Shown here one piece after another: positions 1,729-10,144 of a stretch of 40,873 nucleotides of DNA. Every line of letters starts with the position of its first letter. Within the stretch, counting starts at the first letter, position 1. The position numbers and the translations under genes were made by a program. Origin of the DNA: a virus (taxonomy: Duplodnaviria; Heunggongvirae; Uroviricota; Caudoviricetes); IMG/VR virus record IMGVR_UViG_2609460344_000022, one strand, 5' to 3'. The notes below the pieces were generated by a model. The model had not been told where the DNA came from. It ran no database searches and worked only from the letters and a program-made list of their open reading frames with translations.

Positions 1729-2406
1729 TCACCATTGCTCCCCAAATACAAAACCAATTTCAGCCAGTGCCTCGTCCATTTTTTCGATGAACTCTGGCAC
1801 CATTTCGTCAAAACCAGCCATGTATTTTTCATCCCGTTCGACCACGACATAATGCAGTCCTTCACGCTTCATACGCGGGTCATAGTTGGCAAAGTACCAG
1901 GCATCTTTTCGTGTCACCCACATGCTGTACTGCACCTGGGCCATGTAAGCCGACTTTATGGCCTCGAAACCACCGAGCCGGAATTTCATGAAATCCCGGG
2001 AGGTAAACGGGCATTTCAGTTCAAGGCCGTTGCCGTCACTGCATAAACCATCGGGAGAGCAGGCGGTGCGCATACTTTCGTCGCGATAGATGATCGGGGA
2101 TTCAGTAACATTCACGCCGGAAGTGAACTCAAAGAGGGCTCTGGCGTCGTTCTCGTACTGTTTTCCCCAGGCCAGCGCTTTAGCGTTAACTTCCGGAGCC
2201 ACACCGGTGCAAACCTCAGCCAGCAGGGTGTGGAAGTAGGACATTTTCATGTCAGGCCATTTCTTTCCTGAGCGGGGTTTTGCTATCACGTTGTGAACTT
2301 CTGAAGCGGTGATGACGCCGAGCCGTAATTTGTGCCACGCATCATCCCCCTGTTCGACAGCTCTCACGTCGATCCCTGTACGTTGCAGGATAATGTCCGG
2401 TGTCAT
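1729..2406 (-). CDS. exo: Lambda-type 5'-3' exonuclease (Red alpha)
   Basis: 225-aa protein matching my recollection of lambda Exo almost residue for residue ([65 protein letters not shown]...). Confidence 0.95.
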
Positions 2407-3188
2407 GCTGCTACCTTCTGCTCTGTGACTTTCTGTTTCAGGAATCCAAGAACCTTCACAGCTTCAGCCTGTGTTAGTTCTGAAGATGTGTAAATGTTGC
2501 GGCGAAAAATCTGGGAACAGAGCGGCAACAGGTCGTCATCCCACGTTTTTTCCATGGAAGTAAGAAGGGCGTTAATTTCCGACATGGTTTCTTCGTTAAC
2601 CGGGGTGATGTCGCGTTCCGGCTGACGTTCTGTAGTATATGCAGTATTTTCGACAATACGCTCGGCTTCATCCTTGTCATAGATGCCAGCAAATCCGAAG
2701 GCCAGGCGAGCACACTGAATCATGGCTTTGTGCCGTAACATCCGTTTGGGATGCGACTGCCACGGTCCGGTGATTTCTCTGCCTTCGCGGGTTTTGAATG
2801 GTGCGCGGCGACATTCATCCATCCACTCGGTAACGCAGATCGGATGATTTCGGTCTTTGCGGTAAATCCGGCATGTACATGATTCATCGTCCTGCTCAAA
2901 GTCCATGCCATCAAACTGCTGGTTTTCATTGATGATGCGGGACCAGCCATCAACACCCACCACCGGAACGATACCGTTCTGTTTATCAGGAAAGGCGTAA
3001 ATCTCTTTCGTCCATGGATTAAGGCCGTACTGGTTAGCGACGATCAGTAGTGCGATGAACTGGGCATCGCTGGCATCACCTTTAAATGCTGTCTGGCGAA
3101 GAGTGGTAATCAGTTCCTGTGGGTCGACAGAATCCATGCCGACACGTTCAGCCAGCTTCCCTGCCAGCGTTGCGAGTGCTGTACTCAT
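2403..3188 (-). CDS. bet: Single-strand annealing protein (Red beta)
   Basis: 261-aa protein matching recalled lambda Bet ([66 protein letters not shown]...); 4-nt overlap with exo. Confidence 0.95.
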
Positions 3189-3193
3189 CCGTT

Positions 3194-3490
3194 TTATACC
3201 TCTGAATCAATATTAATTTGGTGACGGGCGATGGTTTCAGCCATGTAGCGGATGTGTTCTGCCATGCGTTCCTGAAAATCGACATCGTCATCAAATGCAC
3301 GGGAAATAGCTTTTTTGCTGGCCCCGTGACGTTGCAGATTATCGATGCATAGCGATTCAAACAGGTGTTGGGGCAGACCTTTTTCCAGGTCGTCTGCCAG
3401 CTCAGCTTCAGTTTCTTCACGGGCAATTTGCTGGTAGTGTCGTGCCCATGACTGCTCTTCAATGCGATCGGGGATAAGCCAGGCATTCAT
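3194..3490 (-). CDS. gam: RecBCD inhibitor Gam (short form)
   Basis: 98-aa protein matching the recalled C-terminal (GamS) portion of lambda Gam (...QSWARHYQQ...[21 protein letters not shown]...[12 protein letters not shown]...); sits upstream of bet as in lambda. Confidence 0.9.
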
Positions 3491-5547
3491 GATTTATCAC
3501 CTCCGAAATTTTCAAGCCTGTTGGCAATCATGATGGCGATATCAGGGATTGCTGGCGCTGTGGCTATACATGCGGGGTTGGCGCACAAACCATAGACGGC
3601 TGCAATCACGAGCTGTCTTTTCCAGTCGAGAATTTCTGGTTCTGAATCAGCCTTATCGTCGGGCGCATTGTTGCCCTGAGCATTCCGGGCAACTGCCTCG
3701 AGTTCATGAGTTGTATCAGCGGAACTTTCCAGGACATCCGCTTGTGCTGAGTTCTCTTCAGCAGATGTGCCGTTTTCTCCAAAAATTTCAGCGTAAGTTT
3801 CATCTCCTATTACCGGACCGCAGTCAGGGCAGTTGCCCCCACCAGTCTGAGCACAGACGCGGCAGGATTTTTCCAGCTCCGGTTGTGCTACTGGCTCTGG
3901 TTGTTGCTCTGCTGGTCCGTTTTGTTGCGTATCCGGGCTGTTTTGTTCCGCTTCTGGCTCATTTTGTTCCACTTTGGATTGATTCTGGTCTTCAGTGTCG
4001 CGAGTCTGGATCCCCTTCACCCACTTCGGGTCGGTTGGGTCGCTGATACCTTCAACGAATTCTCCGCGAGAAGCCGCCAGTAATTTGTCGGCATCGACTG
4101 GATTTTTTGGGGGGATGTTTTCCCTGGCTTTATTGAGTTCCTCCCTCAGTTCCTGGTATTTCGTTTCTACAGATGAGACATTTTCCAGTGATTGCGTGTC
4201 CTCATTATGTTTAACTGGAATTTCTTCCACTGATTCAGGCGCTGCCTGTTCATTAGCCATTGTGTCCGATGTTTGTTGCTTTTCTTCATCGCCATGTTTT
4301 CCTTCTGCTGTTCCGCGCTGCGGCATCGGTGCTGATGAGCGACCGCAGGCAATTTCCACGATTTCCGGATCCGGGTTAGCGTGATCGGTTTCGGTCAACA
4401 CTTTGTTGAGATATTCAGTCACGCGTGCCGGGATGGCCTCAATGCCGATTGGTGCTTCTTTCACGGAAGCCACCACAATGGCGCGGGAATAATCCAGCCC
4501 ACCGGGCATGGCGATAAATTTGTCGCGAAAAACAGAAAAGGGCGGCTTATTCTCTGACACGATTTCTTCAACGCGTTTTGCGTGTGCTGGGTGCAGGTTA
4601 TAAATATCCACATCCATTGAACGGGCCAGAACGCCGGTGGCTACATCTCGTGCGAGTGATGTCTTATCATGTTTGAATCCTTCACCACGATCGGTAATAT
4701 TTCCGCCGCCAGCGTTAGCACCGGAAGGCGTACGGGTAATGCCTGAAACATAATTTCCGTTCTGCCATTCTTTTGTCAGCAGGCCCTGATCAAGGTAGTC
4801 AGTTTTCATCCAGGTGGAAATGAACTTGTCGAATTCAGCCGGGCTGATGCGATGATTTGCAGAGTGGGGGAATGCTTTCCCTACAGATTCAGCCAGGCGG
4901 CTAAGGTGATAATTCGTCAGCTTATCCAGCTCTGGATGTGAACGCACAGCAGTAAGCAGGCTCTGAAGGTAACTATCTTCTGTGTCCATCTCCAGACGGA
5001 TCACATTATTACGTTGTTCTGGTGTGGCGTGATGCCGGTATTTTCCATCTTTATCCTTGCTAAAGAAGAAGAGGTGAAGGAAACGATGGGTAAGACTGAG
5101 AGTGGCGACGGGAATTTCACAGTCAATACAGTCATCGTCGCTGTCTGTGGATTCGATTTTCTCCGCATTACCCGGAACAGCTCCGTCTGGGTCATCGTTG
5201 CCACCGTCAGCCGTTGTGGCATCTTCACCGTTGATGTTGTCATCGGAGGGTATAGCCATCATGGTGATGCCATCGTTACCGCCTTTTTCATAGCGATTAC
5301 AGAATTCGGTATCAAACACTCCTTCCGGTGGAAGGTCATTTACGACGGGCAAATGAACGCGAACAGGTTTTTTAAAGTCATCTTCATCGTAGCCCGCATC
5401 GTCAATCGCAACAGCACCACGAGAGATTGCAATGGATAATTTTTTCGCCTCAGCCCAGTAAAAACCGCCTTTAATGCCGAGGCGTTTTCTTACCTTGTCA
5501 TTTTTTGCTTCGTAATACAGTGGGTAAACTTGTTTATCAGTGCTCAT
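3487..5547 (-). CDS. Large acidic hypothetical protein (686 aa; start trimmed to ATG 5547 with GAGG SD)
   Basis: Long ORF overlapping gam start by 4 nt (ATGA); acidic low-complexity linkers, CxxC...CxxC zinc-ribbon-like motif ([17 protein letters not shown]); upstream part of track ORF (to 5835) overlaps the preceding gene and lacks an SD. Confidence 0.6.
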
Positions 5548-5617: not shown

Positions 5618-6010
5618 TCAGTGAAATGCTTTCTTGTTTGCGGTTTTGGTGCTGGCCTGAGTCTGTTCGTGCTGGCATTCAGGGCAGTCACAGGTGCATT
5701 CACCATTCTCTCTGATAAGCTGAAGAGCCATTGCCAGTTCCAGTATTGCCTGTGGTTTAATTGTACTGTCGACAATTTCAGATGCTGCATGAATATATGG
5801 GCTGGAAGTTTCGCAATACAAACCGAAGGAAACAAAACGACTGTCCTTATATTCGTTAATTGCGATTTCTGTTAGCTCTGAAAATGAATAGACATAATCT
5901 ATCTTGTGTTTTTTGCATATTTCATTTATGCGTGCTGCGATTTCTTTAAGCTCATTTATTGCGTCAGGGCAGGATTCTGAGAACACTTCGTTCTGTGCGA
6001 GTTCTTTCAT
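5618..6010 (-). CDS. Hypothetical Cys-rich protein
   Basis: 130-aa ORF in the early-left operon; C-terminal CTCDCPECQHE cysteine cluster; no recognized family. Confidence 0.45.
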   Translation of the reverse strand: MKELAQNEVFSESCPDAINELKEIAARINEICKKHKIDYVYSFSELTEIAINEYKDSRFVSFGLYCETSSPYIHAASEIVDSTIKPQAILELAMALQLIRENGECTCDCPECQHEQTQASTKTANKKAFH

Positions 6011-7331: not shown

Positions 7332-8045
7332 TCAGGAGGTCAGTTCTTTAAGTTTCTGAACCGCTTTATTCATTTCATCCATGCAGTCGATGAACTCGTC
7401 CAGTTTAAGCTGCATTTTTCCGGCGGCCTGAAGAATTTCAAGTTTTAAGGGCGCGAGTTTTTTGTTGAATACATCATCTTCCTGACGTTTTTTCTCCGCA
7501 ATTTCGGCGGCTTTCAGCAATTCTTCTGCCTGTTTTCTGAGTGTTTCTGGTGAAGGTGAAACTACTTTGAGGTTATTCATTTCAGATTCCTGTTGTTGCA
7601 GAATTAATTTATTACATTCTCTGCGCAAGCGTTTCATTGCAGATTCGCACTTCTTACAATAAATGGCTCTCCCGTCACGTTTGCTGGCATCTGAATAAAA
7701 ATCATCGACTGATTTTGTCTGCCCGCATCTGGTGCATAATTTTGACTGAAGGTCCTTAATGATGGTCACGTTTCCTTCCCGTTTGGGATATCCATATTTT
7801 TTGTGGCGGAAAAAGGTTACTCCGTTACCAGAACCTTCTTTTCTGACCTTAAATACAATGATGCTTTCCCGTTTATCGATAAAATCGATGAGCTGGTTTC
7901 TCTCCTTGCCTGACAGTTCGGCAAATGTCTTAACTTTTTTAGTAACTTCCGTAAGTCGAACGCCATCAGGCATTTTTTCAACGAAGTTTTTAATCTCTGC
8001 AAGTGGACGCCATAATTTTTGCGGCAAAACTGAAGGCGTTGTCAT
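7332..8045 (-). CDS. Hypothetical zinc-ribbon / coiled-coil protein
   Basis: 237-aa ORF immediately downstream of N-like gene (3-nt gap); CTRCGQ...CKKCES zinc-ribbon motif followed by Lys/Glu-rich coiled-coil C-terminus. Confidence 0.55.
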   Translation of the reverse strand: MTTPSVLPQKLWRPLAEIKNFVEKMPDGVRLTEVTKKVKTFAELSGKERNQLIDFIDKRESIIVFKVRKEGSGNGVTFFRHKKYGYPKREGNVTIIKDLQSKLCTRCGQTKSVDDFYSDASKRDGRAIYCKKCESAMKRLRRECNKLILQQQESEMNNLKVVSPSPETLRKQAEELLKAAEIAEKKRQEDDVFNKKLAPLKLEILQAAGKMQLKLDEFIDCMDEMNKAVQKLKELTS

Positions 8046-9097: not shown

Positions 9098-10144
9098 TTA
9101 GTTATCCTTTAATAACCTATACAGTTTTGTAGGGGTACATCCTGAGGATATTGTTAAGTTCGTAGCACGCCTTTTCCGCCCATCATCGTATAAACGAAAA
9201 CCAGTAGTAGACGAATTTTCTGCGTCAAAAACTATAGACAGTATAGCGTCCCCAGACTTTTTTTGCCATTCGCATGTGCCGTTAGTTGGTTTCGTCATCT
9301 GTAGACGCCAGTCAAGAACGCCATCACTTATAGCTGAGAGATCGTTTAGTACATCTAGTACTGATTGATATCTTTCATTTGGATCTACATGAATGCATTT
9401 GTTTACTATTGTTATCAATTTTTTATGTATATGGGGAGGATATTCTTTTAATGGATAGCAGCCATTAATTATCGACTCTCTGAGTTGTTCAATCGTGCTA
9501 AATGCAGATCTTTCTCTTTCAAAATTATCATGTCCAACACACATTCTATATATGGTTAATCCTGCCTGATATATGTCATATGTGAAATTATAATCATTTG
9601 TTGATAAAGAAAAATATTCCGGTGGCACATGAAAATGATATCCAAACTCAGGCGCAGCTCTCGATTCCTCATTGACTAACTGAGATAATCCAAAGTCAGA
9701 TAGCATGGCCTCATTTCTGTTTGATATCATGATGTTATTAGGTTTTATATCAAAATGCATAAGACCTTTTGAGTGTATATGATAAAGTCCACTTAAAAAT
9801 TGAATAGAATACCGTATTATCTCCCTGCTTGTAAGATTATTTTTTTTCATTAATTGGTTTAGCGAACCATTATGATAAAATGGCATGGCTATATAGATAT
9901 TGCTCTCACATTGAGCAGCATACTGAACTTGCACAATATTTGGATGTGCATGTTTATAGAGAAGCCTTGCTTCATTAAAGTAGTCGTCGTGGTTAGTGTT
10001 TTCTTTTTTTTCTATTTCTTTAATCACCAAGTCATGAGCTAGGTGTCTGTCATGAGCCAGATATACTTTTGAAAAACAACCCTGTTCTTCTAGATCACGA
10101 ATCCATTCGAATTCTACATCAGCTCTTTTGTATGGAGTTAGCAT
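9098..10144 (-). CDS. Eukaryotic-like Ser/Thr protein kinase (Stk-like)
   Basis: 348 aa; catalytic loop HFDIKPNN, DFG motif (SDFGLS), beta3 Lys (VIKEI); strongly AT-rich; located between cI and pL. Confidence 0.8.
   Translation of the reverse strand: MLTPYKRADVEFEWIRDLEEQGCFSKVYLAHDRHLAHDLVIKEIEKKENTNHDDYFNEARLLYKHAHPNIVQVQYAAQCESNIYIAMPFYHNGSLNQLMKKNNLTSREIIRYSIQFLSGLYHIHSKGLMHFDIKPNNIMISNRNEAMLSDFGLSQLVNEESRAAPEFGYHFHVPPEYFSLSTNDYNFTYDIYQAGLTIYRMCVGHDNFERERSAFSTIEQLRESIINGCYPLKEYPPHIHKKLITIVNKCIHVDPNERYQSVLDVLNDLSAISDGVLDWRLQMTKPTNGTCEWQKKSGDAILSIVFDAENSSTTGFRLYDDGRKRRATNLTISSGCTPTKLYRLLKDN

What the first reader, a model, noticed from the sequence alone, without database searches (positions are those of the whole stretch)
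3487..5547. Large (686-aa) acidic zinc-ribbon protein directly upstream of gam
Lambda carries small genes (kil, cIII and others) in this position. Here there is a single large protein with acidic low-complexity linkers, a CxxC...CxxC motif and no motif I can assign, overlapping the gam start. Its size and placement in the N-dependent early-left operon suggest a host-takeover or anti-defence function.
Basis: inference. Interest (0 to 1): 0.55.

Follow-up and report, generated by a model that had tools for sequence, protein, structure and literature searches.

The report
Nuclease-less RecE-like protein beside gam
The large acidic phage protein upstream of gam is the non-catalytic front two-thirds of the RecE exonuclease, with a small conserved helical tail in place of the nuclease; this protein class was noted in print in 2025, is mislabelled "exonuclease VIII" in databases, and still has no known role.

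The parts
3487..5547 (-). Whole ORF: 686-aa nuclease-less RecE-family protein (stop codon at 3487-3489)
   Evidence: ORF list. Matches PF06630, NF007259 and PHROG 607. 54% identity to Rac RecE residues 40-555. The exact protein is in NCBI as 'RecE family exodeoxyribonuclease'.
5248..5532 (-). Residues 6-100: N-terminal alpha/beta domain with the invariant PVVNDLPxEG motif (modules A and B)
5122..5247 (-). Residues 101-142: acidic disordered linker 1 (net charge about -15)
   Evidence: pLDDT 25-32. dN/dS 1.24. Charge is conserved across copies.
4333..5121 (-). Residues 143-405: large all-helical core domain (modules C and D) with a glycine-rich loop [13 protein letters not shown] at 272-285. 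This is the most widely shared unit of the family.
   Evidence: pLDDT 75-90 except in the loop. About 90% identical to Rac RecE. 32% identity to the Enterobacter P0294 core, E = 9e-28. Module D is the most widely retained module among representatives. dN/dS 0.11-0.16.
4180..4332 (-). Residues 406-456: acidic disordered linker 2
   Evidence: pLDDT 27-45. dN/dS 0.66.
3988..4179 (-). Residues 457-520: module E, a helix at 457-476 plus the conserved short motif [21 protein letters not shown]
   Evidence: Invariant columns 489-509. Retained with little else of the N-region in the PPompW-type exonucleases (query 485-591). dN/dS 0.14. Low pLDDT suggests it may fold on binding a partner, which is an inference.
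3772..3873 (-). Residues 559-592: zinc-ribbon-like CRVC-x7-CPDC followed by GDxTYxExF
   Evidence: The four Cys are invariant, including in Rac RecE. dN/dS 0.21. AF2 does not model it confidently. Metal binding was not tested.
3637..3771 (-). Residues 593-637: hypervariable acidic linker. This is the breakpoint where relatives continue into a nuclease domain.
   Evidence: Alignment A1. Pairwise identity 0.55 while net charge stays at -9 to -14. dN/dS 0.47 and the highest dS.
3490..3636 (-). Residues 638-686: conserved C-terminal two-helix tail domain ([47 protein letters not shown])
   Evidence: Motif conserved across about 20 divergent representatives. Never co-occurs with a nuclease domain. 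dN/dS 0.20. Helices 642-655 and 658-679 in the AF2 model, and an equivalent hairpin in the Enterobacter model. A stand-alone 65-aa homologue exists in cyanobacterial MAGs. No Pfam or PDB match.
3487..3504 (-). Junction with gam: gam's Shine-Dalgarno GGAGGT (3504-3499) lies inside the last codons, and the stop and start overlap as ATGA (3490-3487)
   Evidence: Sequence. The same junction is present in most viral loci; a second type has a 23-nt overlap.
3194..3490 (-). gam (RecBCD inhibitor homologue), overlapping the end of the ORF
   Evidence: PF06064 Gam in the equivalent loci. Annotated as Gam in the closest phages.
1729..3188 (-). bet (2403-3188) and exo (1729-2406): lambda Red annealase and 5'-3' exonuclease, encoded separately
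   Evidence: PF03837 and PF09588 in equivalent loci. Annotations.

Best explanation
SHOWN: the gene encodes a stand-alone, nuclease-less member of the RecE (exonuclease VIII) family. It consists of the non-catalytic N-terminal region of RecE: an alpha/beta domain, a large helical core, a conserved short motif and a zinc ribbon, strung on acidic disordered linkers. Where relatives carry a nuclease domain, it carries a conserved ~45-aa two-helix tail. It lacks every recognisable nuclease domain, so the database name 'exodeoxyribonuclease VIII' is an over-annotation. It is maintained by purifying selection and overlaps gam-bet-exo in the N-dependent early-left operon. INFERRED: it acts as a non-catalytic scaffold or accessory of the phage's early DNA-end-processing and recombination module. 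In this model the conserved modules bind partners (DNA ends, phage proteins or host proteins), and the acidic linkers act as flexible, charge-conserved tethers. The tail supplies, in trans, what the oligomeric nuclease domain supplies in cis in RecE: self-association or docking to a partner. The only phenotype reported for this region in RecE is stimulation of linear-linear recombination, which gives the most direct functional prediction. My confidence in the identity is about 0.95 and in the inferred mechanism about 0.45.
For: Identity: PF06630. PHROG 607 covers profile positions 1-618 of 883. NF007259 covers 1-578 of 877 and scores 758 bits against a cut-off of 1269. BLASTP gives 54% identity to RecE residues 40-555, including the zinc ribbon.
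Link to exonucleases by fusion and fission: the same N-region (86% identical) is fused to a DUF3799 PD-(D/E)XK nuclease next to RecT. The modules are fused to an Rv2179c-like DEDD exonuclease in HannyBb. A nuclease-less Salmonella form sits two genes from a stand-alone Rv2179c-like gene.
Coupling to the Rec module: 61 of 64 E. coli-type viral loci have gam immediately downstream, overlapping by 4 or 23 nt. The same holds in seven sequenced phages and prophages.
Maintained function: dN/dS is 0.25 overall, 0.09-0.21 in folded modules and the tail, and 0.47-1.24 in linkers. Linker charge is conserved while sequence drifts. 82 of 5,426 complete E. coli genomes carry a full-length copy.
Against: Divergent core-plus-tail relatives in Enterobacter, Lelliottia, Buttiauxella and Cedecea, and in 14 viral loci, have no Gam, Bet, Exo or RecT beside them. 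They lie directly upstream of small ORFs and integrase. The conserved unit can therefore exist without a phage recombinase nearby. Where Bet and Exo are replaced by an AAA_24 ATPase the tail is essentially unchanged, so the tail is not specific to lambda Exo or Bet. No DNA-binding or other informative fold was found for any module. The zinc ribbon and tail are modelled with low confidence. No experiment on this protein or on 'RecE-2' proteins exists in the searched literature.
Confidence: 0.5

Rival explanations
1. Host-directed or anti-defence factor. The helical core plus tail is an autonomous module that binds, sequesters or redirects a host protein, for example a host nuclease, helicase, SSB-interacting factor or defence sensor. 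Recombination genes are only frequent neighbours, and nuclease fusions are optional effector add-ons.
For: Core-plus-tail proteins occur in prophages with no recombinase next to them. In E. coli-type phages the one constant neighbour is Gam, an inhibitor of host RecBCD, even where Bet and Exo are replaced. The gene lies in an early-left region that also holds Ral, Kil and other host-directed genes. The strongly acidic, charge-conserved disordered linkers are compatible with mimicry of or competition for nucleic-acid-binding proteins, which is an inference.
Against: There is no match to any defence-related model and no anti-defence library was available. The same N-region is covalently fused to three kinds of exonuclease in many relatives, which fits a DNA-processing role better than a pure inhibitor. 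No paper reports such an activity.
Confidence: 0.27
2. The database annotation is right: it is a functional exodeoxyribonuclease VIII.
For: It is named 'RecE family exodeoxyribonuclease' or 'exodeoxyribonuclease VIII' in NCBI, UniRef and phage records. It matches PF06630 'Exonuc_VIII'.
Confidence: 0.02
3. It is a functionless remnant: a recE gene truncated when a lambda-type gam-bet-exo module recombined into a Rac-type early-left operon, and it is now drifting.
For: The gene order kil - small ORF - recE-like is Rac-like, and the junction to lambda-like gam lies at the gene's 3' end. About 6 of 64 E. coli-type viral-contig copies are frameshifted or 5'-deleted. K-12's related ydfE is an IS2-truncated pseudogene.
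Against: dN/dS is 0.25, with a domain-versus-linker pattern. Seven divergent copies are intact, and length stays at about 680-700 aa across 77-100% identity. The replacement tail is itself conserved across roughly 35-46%-identical clades that have no gam, and exists as an independent mini-protein. Twenty-one of 87 diverse representatives share the tail architecture.
Confidence: 0.05
4. It is an accessory of integration/excision or of early-left operon regulation, rather than of recombination or host takeover.
For: In the divergent clade the gene is separated from integrase only by one to three small ORFs. In all architectures it lies in the distal part of the leftward operon, close to xis and int.
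Against: This position is also where Rec modules normally sit. The nuclease fusions have no obvious role in site-specific recombination. No DNA-binding or regulator fold was detected.
Confidence: 0.06

Closest known systems
Rac prophage RecE (exodeoxyribonuclease VIII, 866 aa; nuclease domain PDB 3H4R)
   Same: Residues 48-599 align to RecE residues 40-555 at 54% identity, with about 90% identity in the helical core. The shared features are the PVVNDLPxEG motif, the glycine-rich loop, the GISDPxDPKW motif and the CxxC...CxxC ribbon. Both N-regions are strongly acidic, with pI about 4.6 and net charge about -52. Both genes lie in the leftward early operon after kil.
   Different: The window protein has no nuclease domain (RecE 605-866) and has a hydrophobic two-helix tail instead. 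Its downstream neighbour is gam-bet-exo rather than recT. It therefore cannot be the 5'-3' exonuclease that defines RecE.
'RecE-2' proteins of lambdoid Rec modules (Genome Res 2025, PMC12315714)
   Same: [quoted passage not shown] That is the same description I reach here.
   Different: The paper gives no anatomy. Its supplementary tables are not held, so I could not confirm that this protein or its close phage relatives (75/02 Stx, POCJ13, PhiR5_2) are among their RecE-2 set. The paper calls them 'distantly related', whereas this one is 54% identical to Rac RecE.
YdfE-type core-plus-tail proteins (Pfam PF27430 YdfE_N + PF27432 YdfE_C; Enterobacter prophage 633-aa proteins; the K-12 Qin ydfE pseudogene)
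   Same: They share the helical core (32% identity, E = 9e-28) and the C-terminal tail motif (41% identity). They also have no nuclease, are acidic, are the last large gene of the leftward operon, and are likewise named 'exodeoxyribonuclease VIII'.
   Different: They have a different N-terminus (YdfE_N/C instead of PF06630), no CxxC...CxxC motif in the 12 clade members checked, an extra helical segment before the tail, and no gam, bet or exo downstream. The window protein shows no direct similarity to K-12's truncated YdfE.
N-region fused to DEDD 3'-5' exonuclease (HannyBb/Tritos type; DnaQ-like nucleases of lambdoid Rec modules)
   Same: They share modules corresponding to query residues 312-591: the end of the core, module E and the zinc ribbon.
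   Different: They carry a C-terminal Rv2179c-like exonuclease (PF16473) instead of the tail, and in HannyBb no RecT-like gene lies between the exonuclease and xis/int. Fourteen of 87 diverse representatives have this architecture.
P22 Abc1 and Arf (accessory Rec-module proteins)
   Same: This is a functional analogy only. They are non-essential accessory proteins encoded inside a phage Rec module, and their molecular function is unknown.
   Different: I did not test sequence or structural relatedness; they are listed only because the paper discusses them alongside RecE-2.

Membership tests
RecE / exodeoxyribonuclease VIII (NCBIfam NF007259 equivalog) | N-terminal Exonuc_VIII region (Pfam PF06630) | tested here: met
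   PF06630 E = 1.3e-10, 41.9 bits against a cut-off of 25, residues 52-197.
RecE / exodeoxyribonuclease VIII (NCBIfam NF007259 equivalog) | C-terminal PD-(D/E)XK nuclease domain (RecE 605-866, PDB 3H4R) | tested here: not met
   The query has no PDB hit, whereas RecE hits 3H4R at 605-866. The alignment stops at RecE residue 555. phmmer with four nuclease domains finds none. No nuclease fold appears in the fold searches.
RecE / exodeoxyribonuclease VIII (NCBIfam NF007259 equivalog) | Whole-protein score above the curated equivalog cut-off | tested here: not met
   758.3 bits against a cut-off of 1269; only model positions 1-578 of 877 are covered.
RecE / exodeoxyribonuclease VIII (NCBIfam NF007259 equivalog) | Partner annealase recT immediately downstream | tested here: not met
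   The downstream gene is gam, followed by bet (which hits Pfam PF03837 RecT) and a separate lambda exo. Nuclease-bearing relatives do have RecT directly downstream.
RecE / exodeoxyribonuclease VIII (NCBIfam NF007259 equivalog) | 5'-3' dsDNA exonuclease activity | not testable with these tools
   This needs a biochemical assay. I predict no activity.
Nuclease-less RecE-like proteins ('RecE-2', PMC12315714) | Homology to Rac/Gifsy RecE, absence of a nuclease domain, and a gene in a lambdoid early-left operon | tested here: met
   Homology. No nuclease. Operon position. The paper's member list was not available.
Core-plus-tail subfamily (YdfE type / PHROG 26058) | Helical core domain homologous to that of the Enterobacter 633-aa proteins | tested here: met
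   Residues 147-421 against 123-376, 32% identity, E = 9e-28. PHROG 26058 E = 2.8e-30 over residues 174-424.
Core-plus-tail subfamily (YdfE type / PHROG 26058) | C-terminal tail motif QQLxIAAxxGLCANPA...(I/L)P..A..lA within about 40 residues of the C-terminus | tested here: met
   Tail alignments. 41% identity to the P0294 tail. The motif lies 8-40 residues from the C-terminus in all 147 carriers.
Core-plus-tail subfamily (YdfE type / PHROG 26058) | Pfam YdfE_N (PF27430) and YdfE_C (PF27432) domains | tested here: not met
   The precomputed Pfam list for the identical protein P0001 shows only PF06630. There is no similarity to K-12 YdfE. These two models are absent from the local Pfam copy, so I could not scan for them directly.
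Zinc-ribbon proteins | Two CxxC pairs with conserved spacing; metal binding | tested here: inconclusive
   CRVC-x7-CPDC is invariant in alignment A1, including Rac RecE, and dN/dS is 0.21. AF2 gives pLDDT below 50 there. Metal binding cannot be tested here.
Known anti-defence or defence proteins | Sequence match to a described defence or anti-defence family | tested here: not met
   No PADLOC hit and no relevant Pfam, NCBIfam or PHROG category. No dedicated anti-defence library was available, so absence is weak evidence.
Membrane-anchored proteins (idea considered for the tail) | A C-terminal transmembrane helix conserved in hydrophobicity | tested here: not met
   The window's tail reaches a Kyte-Doolittle 19-residue mean of 1.75. 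Divergent tails and the cyanobacterial 65-aa homologue are polar or acidic around the same motif.

The most novel reading that the evidence does not exclude
The helical core plus the GLCANPA tail is an autonomous, portable module that works without any phage nuclease or recombinase, for example by capturing or redirecting a host DNA-end-processing or replication factor. In this reading the PD-(D/E)XK and DEDD nuclease domains found in relatives are interchangeable effector add-ons at the same C-terminal slot. The tail would be a previously undescribed mini-domain for oligomerisation or docking, shared with 65-aa stand-alone proteins in cyanobacteria. It would also mean that the unexplained N-terminal 600 residues of RecE are the ancestral business end of the family rather than an appendage.
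Probability: 0.25. Interest if true: 0.65.

Novelty: new member of a known kind. Interest (0 to 1): 0.4.

Why it matters
What the roughly 600-residue N-terminal region of RecE does has been open since the nuclease domain was shown to suffice for recombination. The only reported phenotype is that full-length RecE boosts linear-linear recombination, which is the basis of direct-cloning technology. Here nature has separated that region from the nuclease, kept it under purifying selection, given it a conserved replacement tail, and placed it directly in front of lambda Red. That makes the question testable with simple genetics: add this one gene to a Red-expressing plasmid and measure linear-linear recombination. 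If it works in trans it could improve recombineering. The result also flags a systematic misannotation: thousands of database entries called 'exodeoxyribonuclease VIII', or 'exonuclease VII' in RefSeq phage records and PHROG 607, have no nuclease domain. That can mislead surveys of phage recombination modules.

Tried and rejected
1. Tail as a membrane anchor. Rejected: hydrophobicity is not conserved in divergent tails or in the cyanobacterial homologue.
2. Tail as a specific dock for lambda Exo or Bet. Weakened: the same tail occurs with Gam plus an AAA_24 ATPase, and divergent tails occur with no recombinase at all.
3. SSB-tip mimicry by the ...DDEHMPDF endings of 22 viral-locus variants. 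Probably a by-product: those eight residues are encoded by a 23-nt out-of-frame overlap with the gam start, and the window's variant lacks them.
4. ParA partnership of the cyanobacterial 65-aa tail homologue. The ParA-like neighbour in L106 is not conserved in L107.
5. Short tail-only ORFs as independent mini-genes. They are frameshifted or 5'-deleted copies.
6. A 755-aa 'nuclease-less' Salmonella form (P0463). It is an artefact of a contig end.
8. Tail profile against PDB and Pfam: nothing.
9. PADLOC: nothing.
10. Direct similarity to K-12 YdfE: none. The link exists only through the Enterobacter proteins.
11. The upstream 130-aa ORF against RacC and YdaE: no similarity.
12. The first literature search was useless because 'RecE' matched 'receptor'; I repeated it with whole-word matching. 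Fu et al. 2012 is not held, so its content is cited only through reviews.
13. The second AF2 model (Enterobacter P0294) had low confidence, mean pLDDT 49. I used it only for secondary structure.
Full report
OBSERVATION. The feature exists as described. The minus strand carries an ORF at 3487..5547. The reading frame stays open upstream to a TTG at 5835. However, every homologue begins MS(T/A)DK at the ATG at 5547, which has an AGAGG about 11 nt upstream, and the 130-aa upstream ORF ends at 5618. The product is 686 aa with pI 4.64, 122 acidic against 70 basic residues, and CRVC(562-565)...CPDC(573-576). Its TGA overlaps the gam ATG as ATGA, and its last codons contain gam's Shine-Dalgarno sequence GGAGGT. 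Downstream on the same strand are gam, bet, exo, a DUF4222 ORF and int. Upstream are a 130-aa ORF, a kil-like gene, two conserved ORFs of unknown function and an N-like antiterminator. A cI-like, cro-like and cII-like arrangement lies at 11-12.5 kb. A promoter-like site at 8709-8681 sits just upstream of N, and terminator-like hairpins lie inside the leftward gene string. The placement in an N-dependent early-left operon is therefore reasonable. The window is 100% identical over this gene to a prophage of E. coli strain TOE17.

WHAT IT IS. The protein is not an orphan. Pfam PF06630 (Exonuc_VIII) matches residues 52-197. PHROG 607 matches residues 1-684 but covers only profile positions 1-618 of 883. 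The NCBIfam exodeoxyribonuclease VIII equivalog matches residues 1-613 against model positions 1-578 of 877, scoring 758 bits against a cut-off of 1269. BLASTP against E. coli K-12 Rac RecE gives 54% identity over query 48-599 and RecE 40-555. Identity is about 90% in the central region, and both CxxC pairs are conserved. RecE residues 605-866 are the crystallised nuclease domain (3H4R). The query has no PDB match at all, and in a multiple alignment it ends where relatives continue into a nuclease. The gene therefore encodes the non-catalytic N-terminal two-thirds of RecE and not the enzyme. Public records nevertheless call it 'RecE family exodeoxyribonuclease', 'exodeoxyribonuclease VIII' or even 'exonuclease VII'.

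ANATOMY. An AlphaFold2 model built from a 30-sequence cross-clade alignment has mean pLDDT 57.7. It shows the following:
- an alpha/beta domain at residues 6-100 (pLDDT 71-89);
- a large all-helical domain at 143-405 (pLDDT 75-90), interrupted by a glycine-rich loop [13 protein letters not shown];
- an isolated helix at 457-476, followed by the invariant motif [21 protein letters not shown];
- a zinc-ribbon segment that is poorly modelled;
- a C-terminal two-helix hairpin at 642-679 (pLDDT 52-58).

These parts are separated by predicted-disordered acidic linkers at 101-142, 406-456 and 501-640. Nearly all the negative charge is in the linkers. The 260-residue core carries only -3 to -5 net charge and the tail about -1. 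Linker 593-637 is only 55% identical between copies yet keeps a net charge of -9 to -14. The whole family, including the RecE N-region and divergent clades, has pI 4.6-4.9. Charge is therefore conserved while sequence drifts.

IS IT A LIVE GENE? Seven divergent nuclease-less copies are all intact: the window, three phages and three prophages. Nei-Gojobori dN/dS is 0.25 overall. It is 0.09-0.21 in the folded modules, the zinc ribbon and the tail, but 1.24, 0.66 and 0.47 in the three long acidic linkers and 0.27 in the short linker at 521-558. The 119 closest clusters keep a length of about 680-700 aa across 77-100% identity, apart from partial entries. Full-length copies occur in 82 of 5,426 complete E. 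coli genomes. Some decay exists: about 6 of 64 E. coli-type viral-contig copies are frameshifted or 5'-deleted. Overall, this is a maintained protein built from constrained modules and unconstrained tethers.

FAMILY STRUCTURE. The family is narrow. Only 212 representatives at 50% clustering, out of 1.84 billion proteins, match at E <= 1e-3; all named sources are Enterobacterales or their phages, apart from one record named as an Actinobacillus phage. It is also strongly mosaic, since different phages retain different subsets of the modules. The C-terminal position is a slot occupied by alternatives. Among the 87 diverse representatives of at least 400 aa:
- 20 carry a PD-(D/E)XK nuclease (RecE or DUF3799 type);
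- 14 carry an Rv2179c-like DEDD 3'-5' exonuclease;
- 21 carry the tail;
- 32 carry none of these.

Across all 507 collected proteins, 147 have the tail, 150 have a nuclease, and none have both. A 1049-aa E. coli protein that is 86% identical to the query over residues 1-590 continues into a DUF3799 nuclease and is followed by RecT. So the breakpoint lies in the hypervariable linker after the zinc ribbon. HannyBb fuses the modules to a DEDD exonuclease, and no RecT-like gene lies between that gene and xis/int. A Salmonella element has a nuclease-less form two genes away from a stand-alone DEDD exonuclease. These fusion and fission relationships are the main argument for a functional connection between the N-region and exonucleases.

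THE TAIL. The motif L(T/S)(Y/W/F)xQQLxIAAxQGLCANPA...(D/E)(I/L)PxMA..lA is conserved among clades that are otherwise about 25-40% identical. An independent, low-confidence AF2 model of an Enterobacter member predicts it as two helices. In the window's lineage it is unusually hydrophobic. In divergent members it is not, which argues against a membrane anchor. It has no Pfam or PDB match. A species-level scan found it in Lelliottia, Buttiauxella and Cedecea prophages. Unexpectedly, it also occurs as a stand-alone 65-aa protein in three Spirulina-like cyanobacterial MAGs, and that protein matches the C-terminal end of PHROG 26058 with E = 6e-5. The tail is thus an autonomous mini-domain. Its function is unknown. 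My inference is self-association or partner docking, which would replace the oligomeric nuclease domain.

CONTEXT. In 61 of 64 E. coli-type viral loci, gam follows immediately. In the other three my simple ORF caller did not call gam, or the locus ends there. The overlap is 4 nt, as in the window, or 23 nt. Usually bet and exo follow. In about six loci they do not, and in three of these an AAA_24 ATPase (365 aa) follows Gam. In contrast, 14 divergent viral loci, the Enterobacter prophages and the Lelliottia, Buttiauxella and Cedecea loci have no Gam, Bet, Exo or RecT. There the gene is followed by small ORFs and integrase. Those Enterobacter proteins carry the new Pfam domains YdfE_N and YdfE_C. 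Their N-terminus matches the K-12 Qin ydfE pseudogene, which is truncated by IS2 at the end of the dicB operon. Their helical core and tail match the window protein.

HOW IT LIKELY WORKS. It is shown that the protein is a nuclease-less RecE N-region with a replacement tail, under selection, overlapping gam (and so probably translationally coupled to it) and lying in one operon with bet and exo. It is inferred that the protein is a non-catalytic scaffold or accessory of the early DNA-end and recombination module. This inference rests on three things:
- the fusions to three classes of exonuclease;
- the beads-on-a-string architecture of small conserved modules joined by charge-conserved tethers, which from general knowledge is typical of hub proteins;

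COMPARISON WITH WHAT IS KNOWN, AND NOVELTY. As a member of the RecE equivalog it fails the defining tests: nuclease domain, curated score and recT neighbour. It should not be filed as an exonuclease. [quoted passage not shown] The same survey reports DnaQ-like nucleases in Rec modules. Its tables were not available to check membership. The class is therefore already noticed but uncharacterised. I found no functional study of RecE-2, YdfE or the RecE N-terminal domain. This analysis adds:
- the module map;
- the conserved tail domain and its strict exclusivity with nuclease domains;
- the selection pattern;
- the coupling to gam;
- the link to YdfE-type proteins;
- the stand-alone cyanobacterial tail homologue.

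VERDICT. I rate it a new member of a known but uncharacterised kind. Interest is moderate (0.4), mainly because it offers a natural, separable version of the RecE N-terminal region for a simple experimental test, and because it exposes a widespread misannotation.

Noticed in passing
window 9098-10144 (- strand): A 348-aa eukaryotic-type Ser/Thr kinase (PHROG 2361, E = 2e-142) sits with two small ORFs (10138-10599, 10667-11008) between the N gene and the cI-like repressor. That is the position lambda gives to rexAB. A terminator-like hairpin at 8932-8911 follows it. From memory, this resembles the Stk kinase of phage 933W.
   Followed up: partly
window 7332-8045 (- strand): A 237-aa protein (PHROG 2539, unknown function) lies directly after N. 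It has a central CxxC...CxxC segment that weakly matches Lar-like restriction-alleviation and endonuclease VII/HNH-type PHROGs (E = 1e-6 to 5e-10). A 714-bp ORF sits at the same relative position (two genes upstream of kil) in PhiR5_2, 75/02 Stx, phiSTEC1589 and loci L003-L005.
   Followed up: partly
window 5618-6010 (- strand): A 130-aa ORF (PHROG 2016, unknown function) ends in CTCDCPEC. A 128-130-aa ORF lies directly upstream of the RecE-like gene in the sequenced relatives examined. It shows no similarity to Rac RacC or YdaE and has no Pfam or PADLOC hit.
   Followed up: partly
L064, L067, L068, L071, L073-L079 and others (22 of 78 viral loci); proteins P0122, P0129, P0117: A variant of the tail ends in FGV(T/A)(D/S)DE(H/Y/R)(M/L)P(D/N)F. 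From memory this resembles the DDDIPF tip of E. coli SSB, a protein-docking motif. The eight residues are encoded by a 23-nt out-of-frame overlap with the gam start, so the resemblance may be a by-product of dual coding.
   Followed up: partly
L105 202-399, L106 4583-4780, L107 1534-1731: Three Spirulina-like cyanobacterial MAGs encode a stand-alone 65-aa protein (MEGHHLDKIGFRQQLIIAAVQGLCANPTQDGIDPDDLAERAVAIAEAVI...) homologous to the tail domain (PHROG 26058 C-terminus, E = 6e-5). A ParA-like ATPase lies upstream in L106 but not in L107.
   Followed up: partly
L063 5442-6539, L070 5167-6264: In some E. coli-type prophages the order is RecE-like protein, then Gam, then a 365-aa AAA_24 ATPase and a DUF1187 protein, instead of Bet and Exo. 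From memory, AAA_24 is the family that includes Sak4-type recombinases.
   Followed up: partly
L011 3218-5689 (Escherichia phage HannyBb): An 823-aa protein combines RecE N-region modules (query 312-591) with a C-terminal Rv2179c-like DEDD 3'-5' exonuclease (PF16473, E = 2e-67). It is followed directly by xis and int with no annealase gene. Fourteen of 87 family representatives share this architecture.
   Followed up: partly
L018 5079-5999 (E. coli K-12 Qin prophage ydfE): The K-12 ydfE pseudogene, truncated by IS2E at the end of the dicB operon, is the 5' remnant of an Enterobacter-type core-plus-tail gene (23% identity, E = 1e-7 to P0294 residues 6-212). No functional paper on YdfE was found.
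   Followed up: yes
Public records PV340546, PQ600364, KF766125/NC_029120, KJ603229/NC_025434, NZ_CP069093; PHROG 607: Nuclease-less proteins of this type are uniformly named 'exodeoxyribonuclease VIII' or 'RecE family exodeoxyribonuclease'. RefSeq phage records and the PHROG 607 label call them 'exonuclease VII', which is a different enzyme.
   Followed up: yes
window residues 272-285 of the ORF (about 4693-4734, - strand): A glycine-rich loop SGANAGGGN(I/L)TDRGEGF inside the helical core is invariant from E. coli to Enterobacter-type proteins. Several Salmonella-type relatives replace it with an unrelated RRSEKPTHRT segment. AF2 leaves it unstructured. Its role, whether ligand binding or something else, is unknown.
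   Followed up: no
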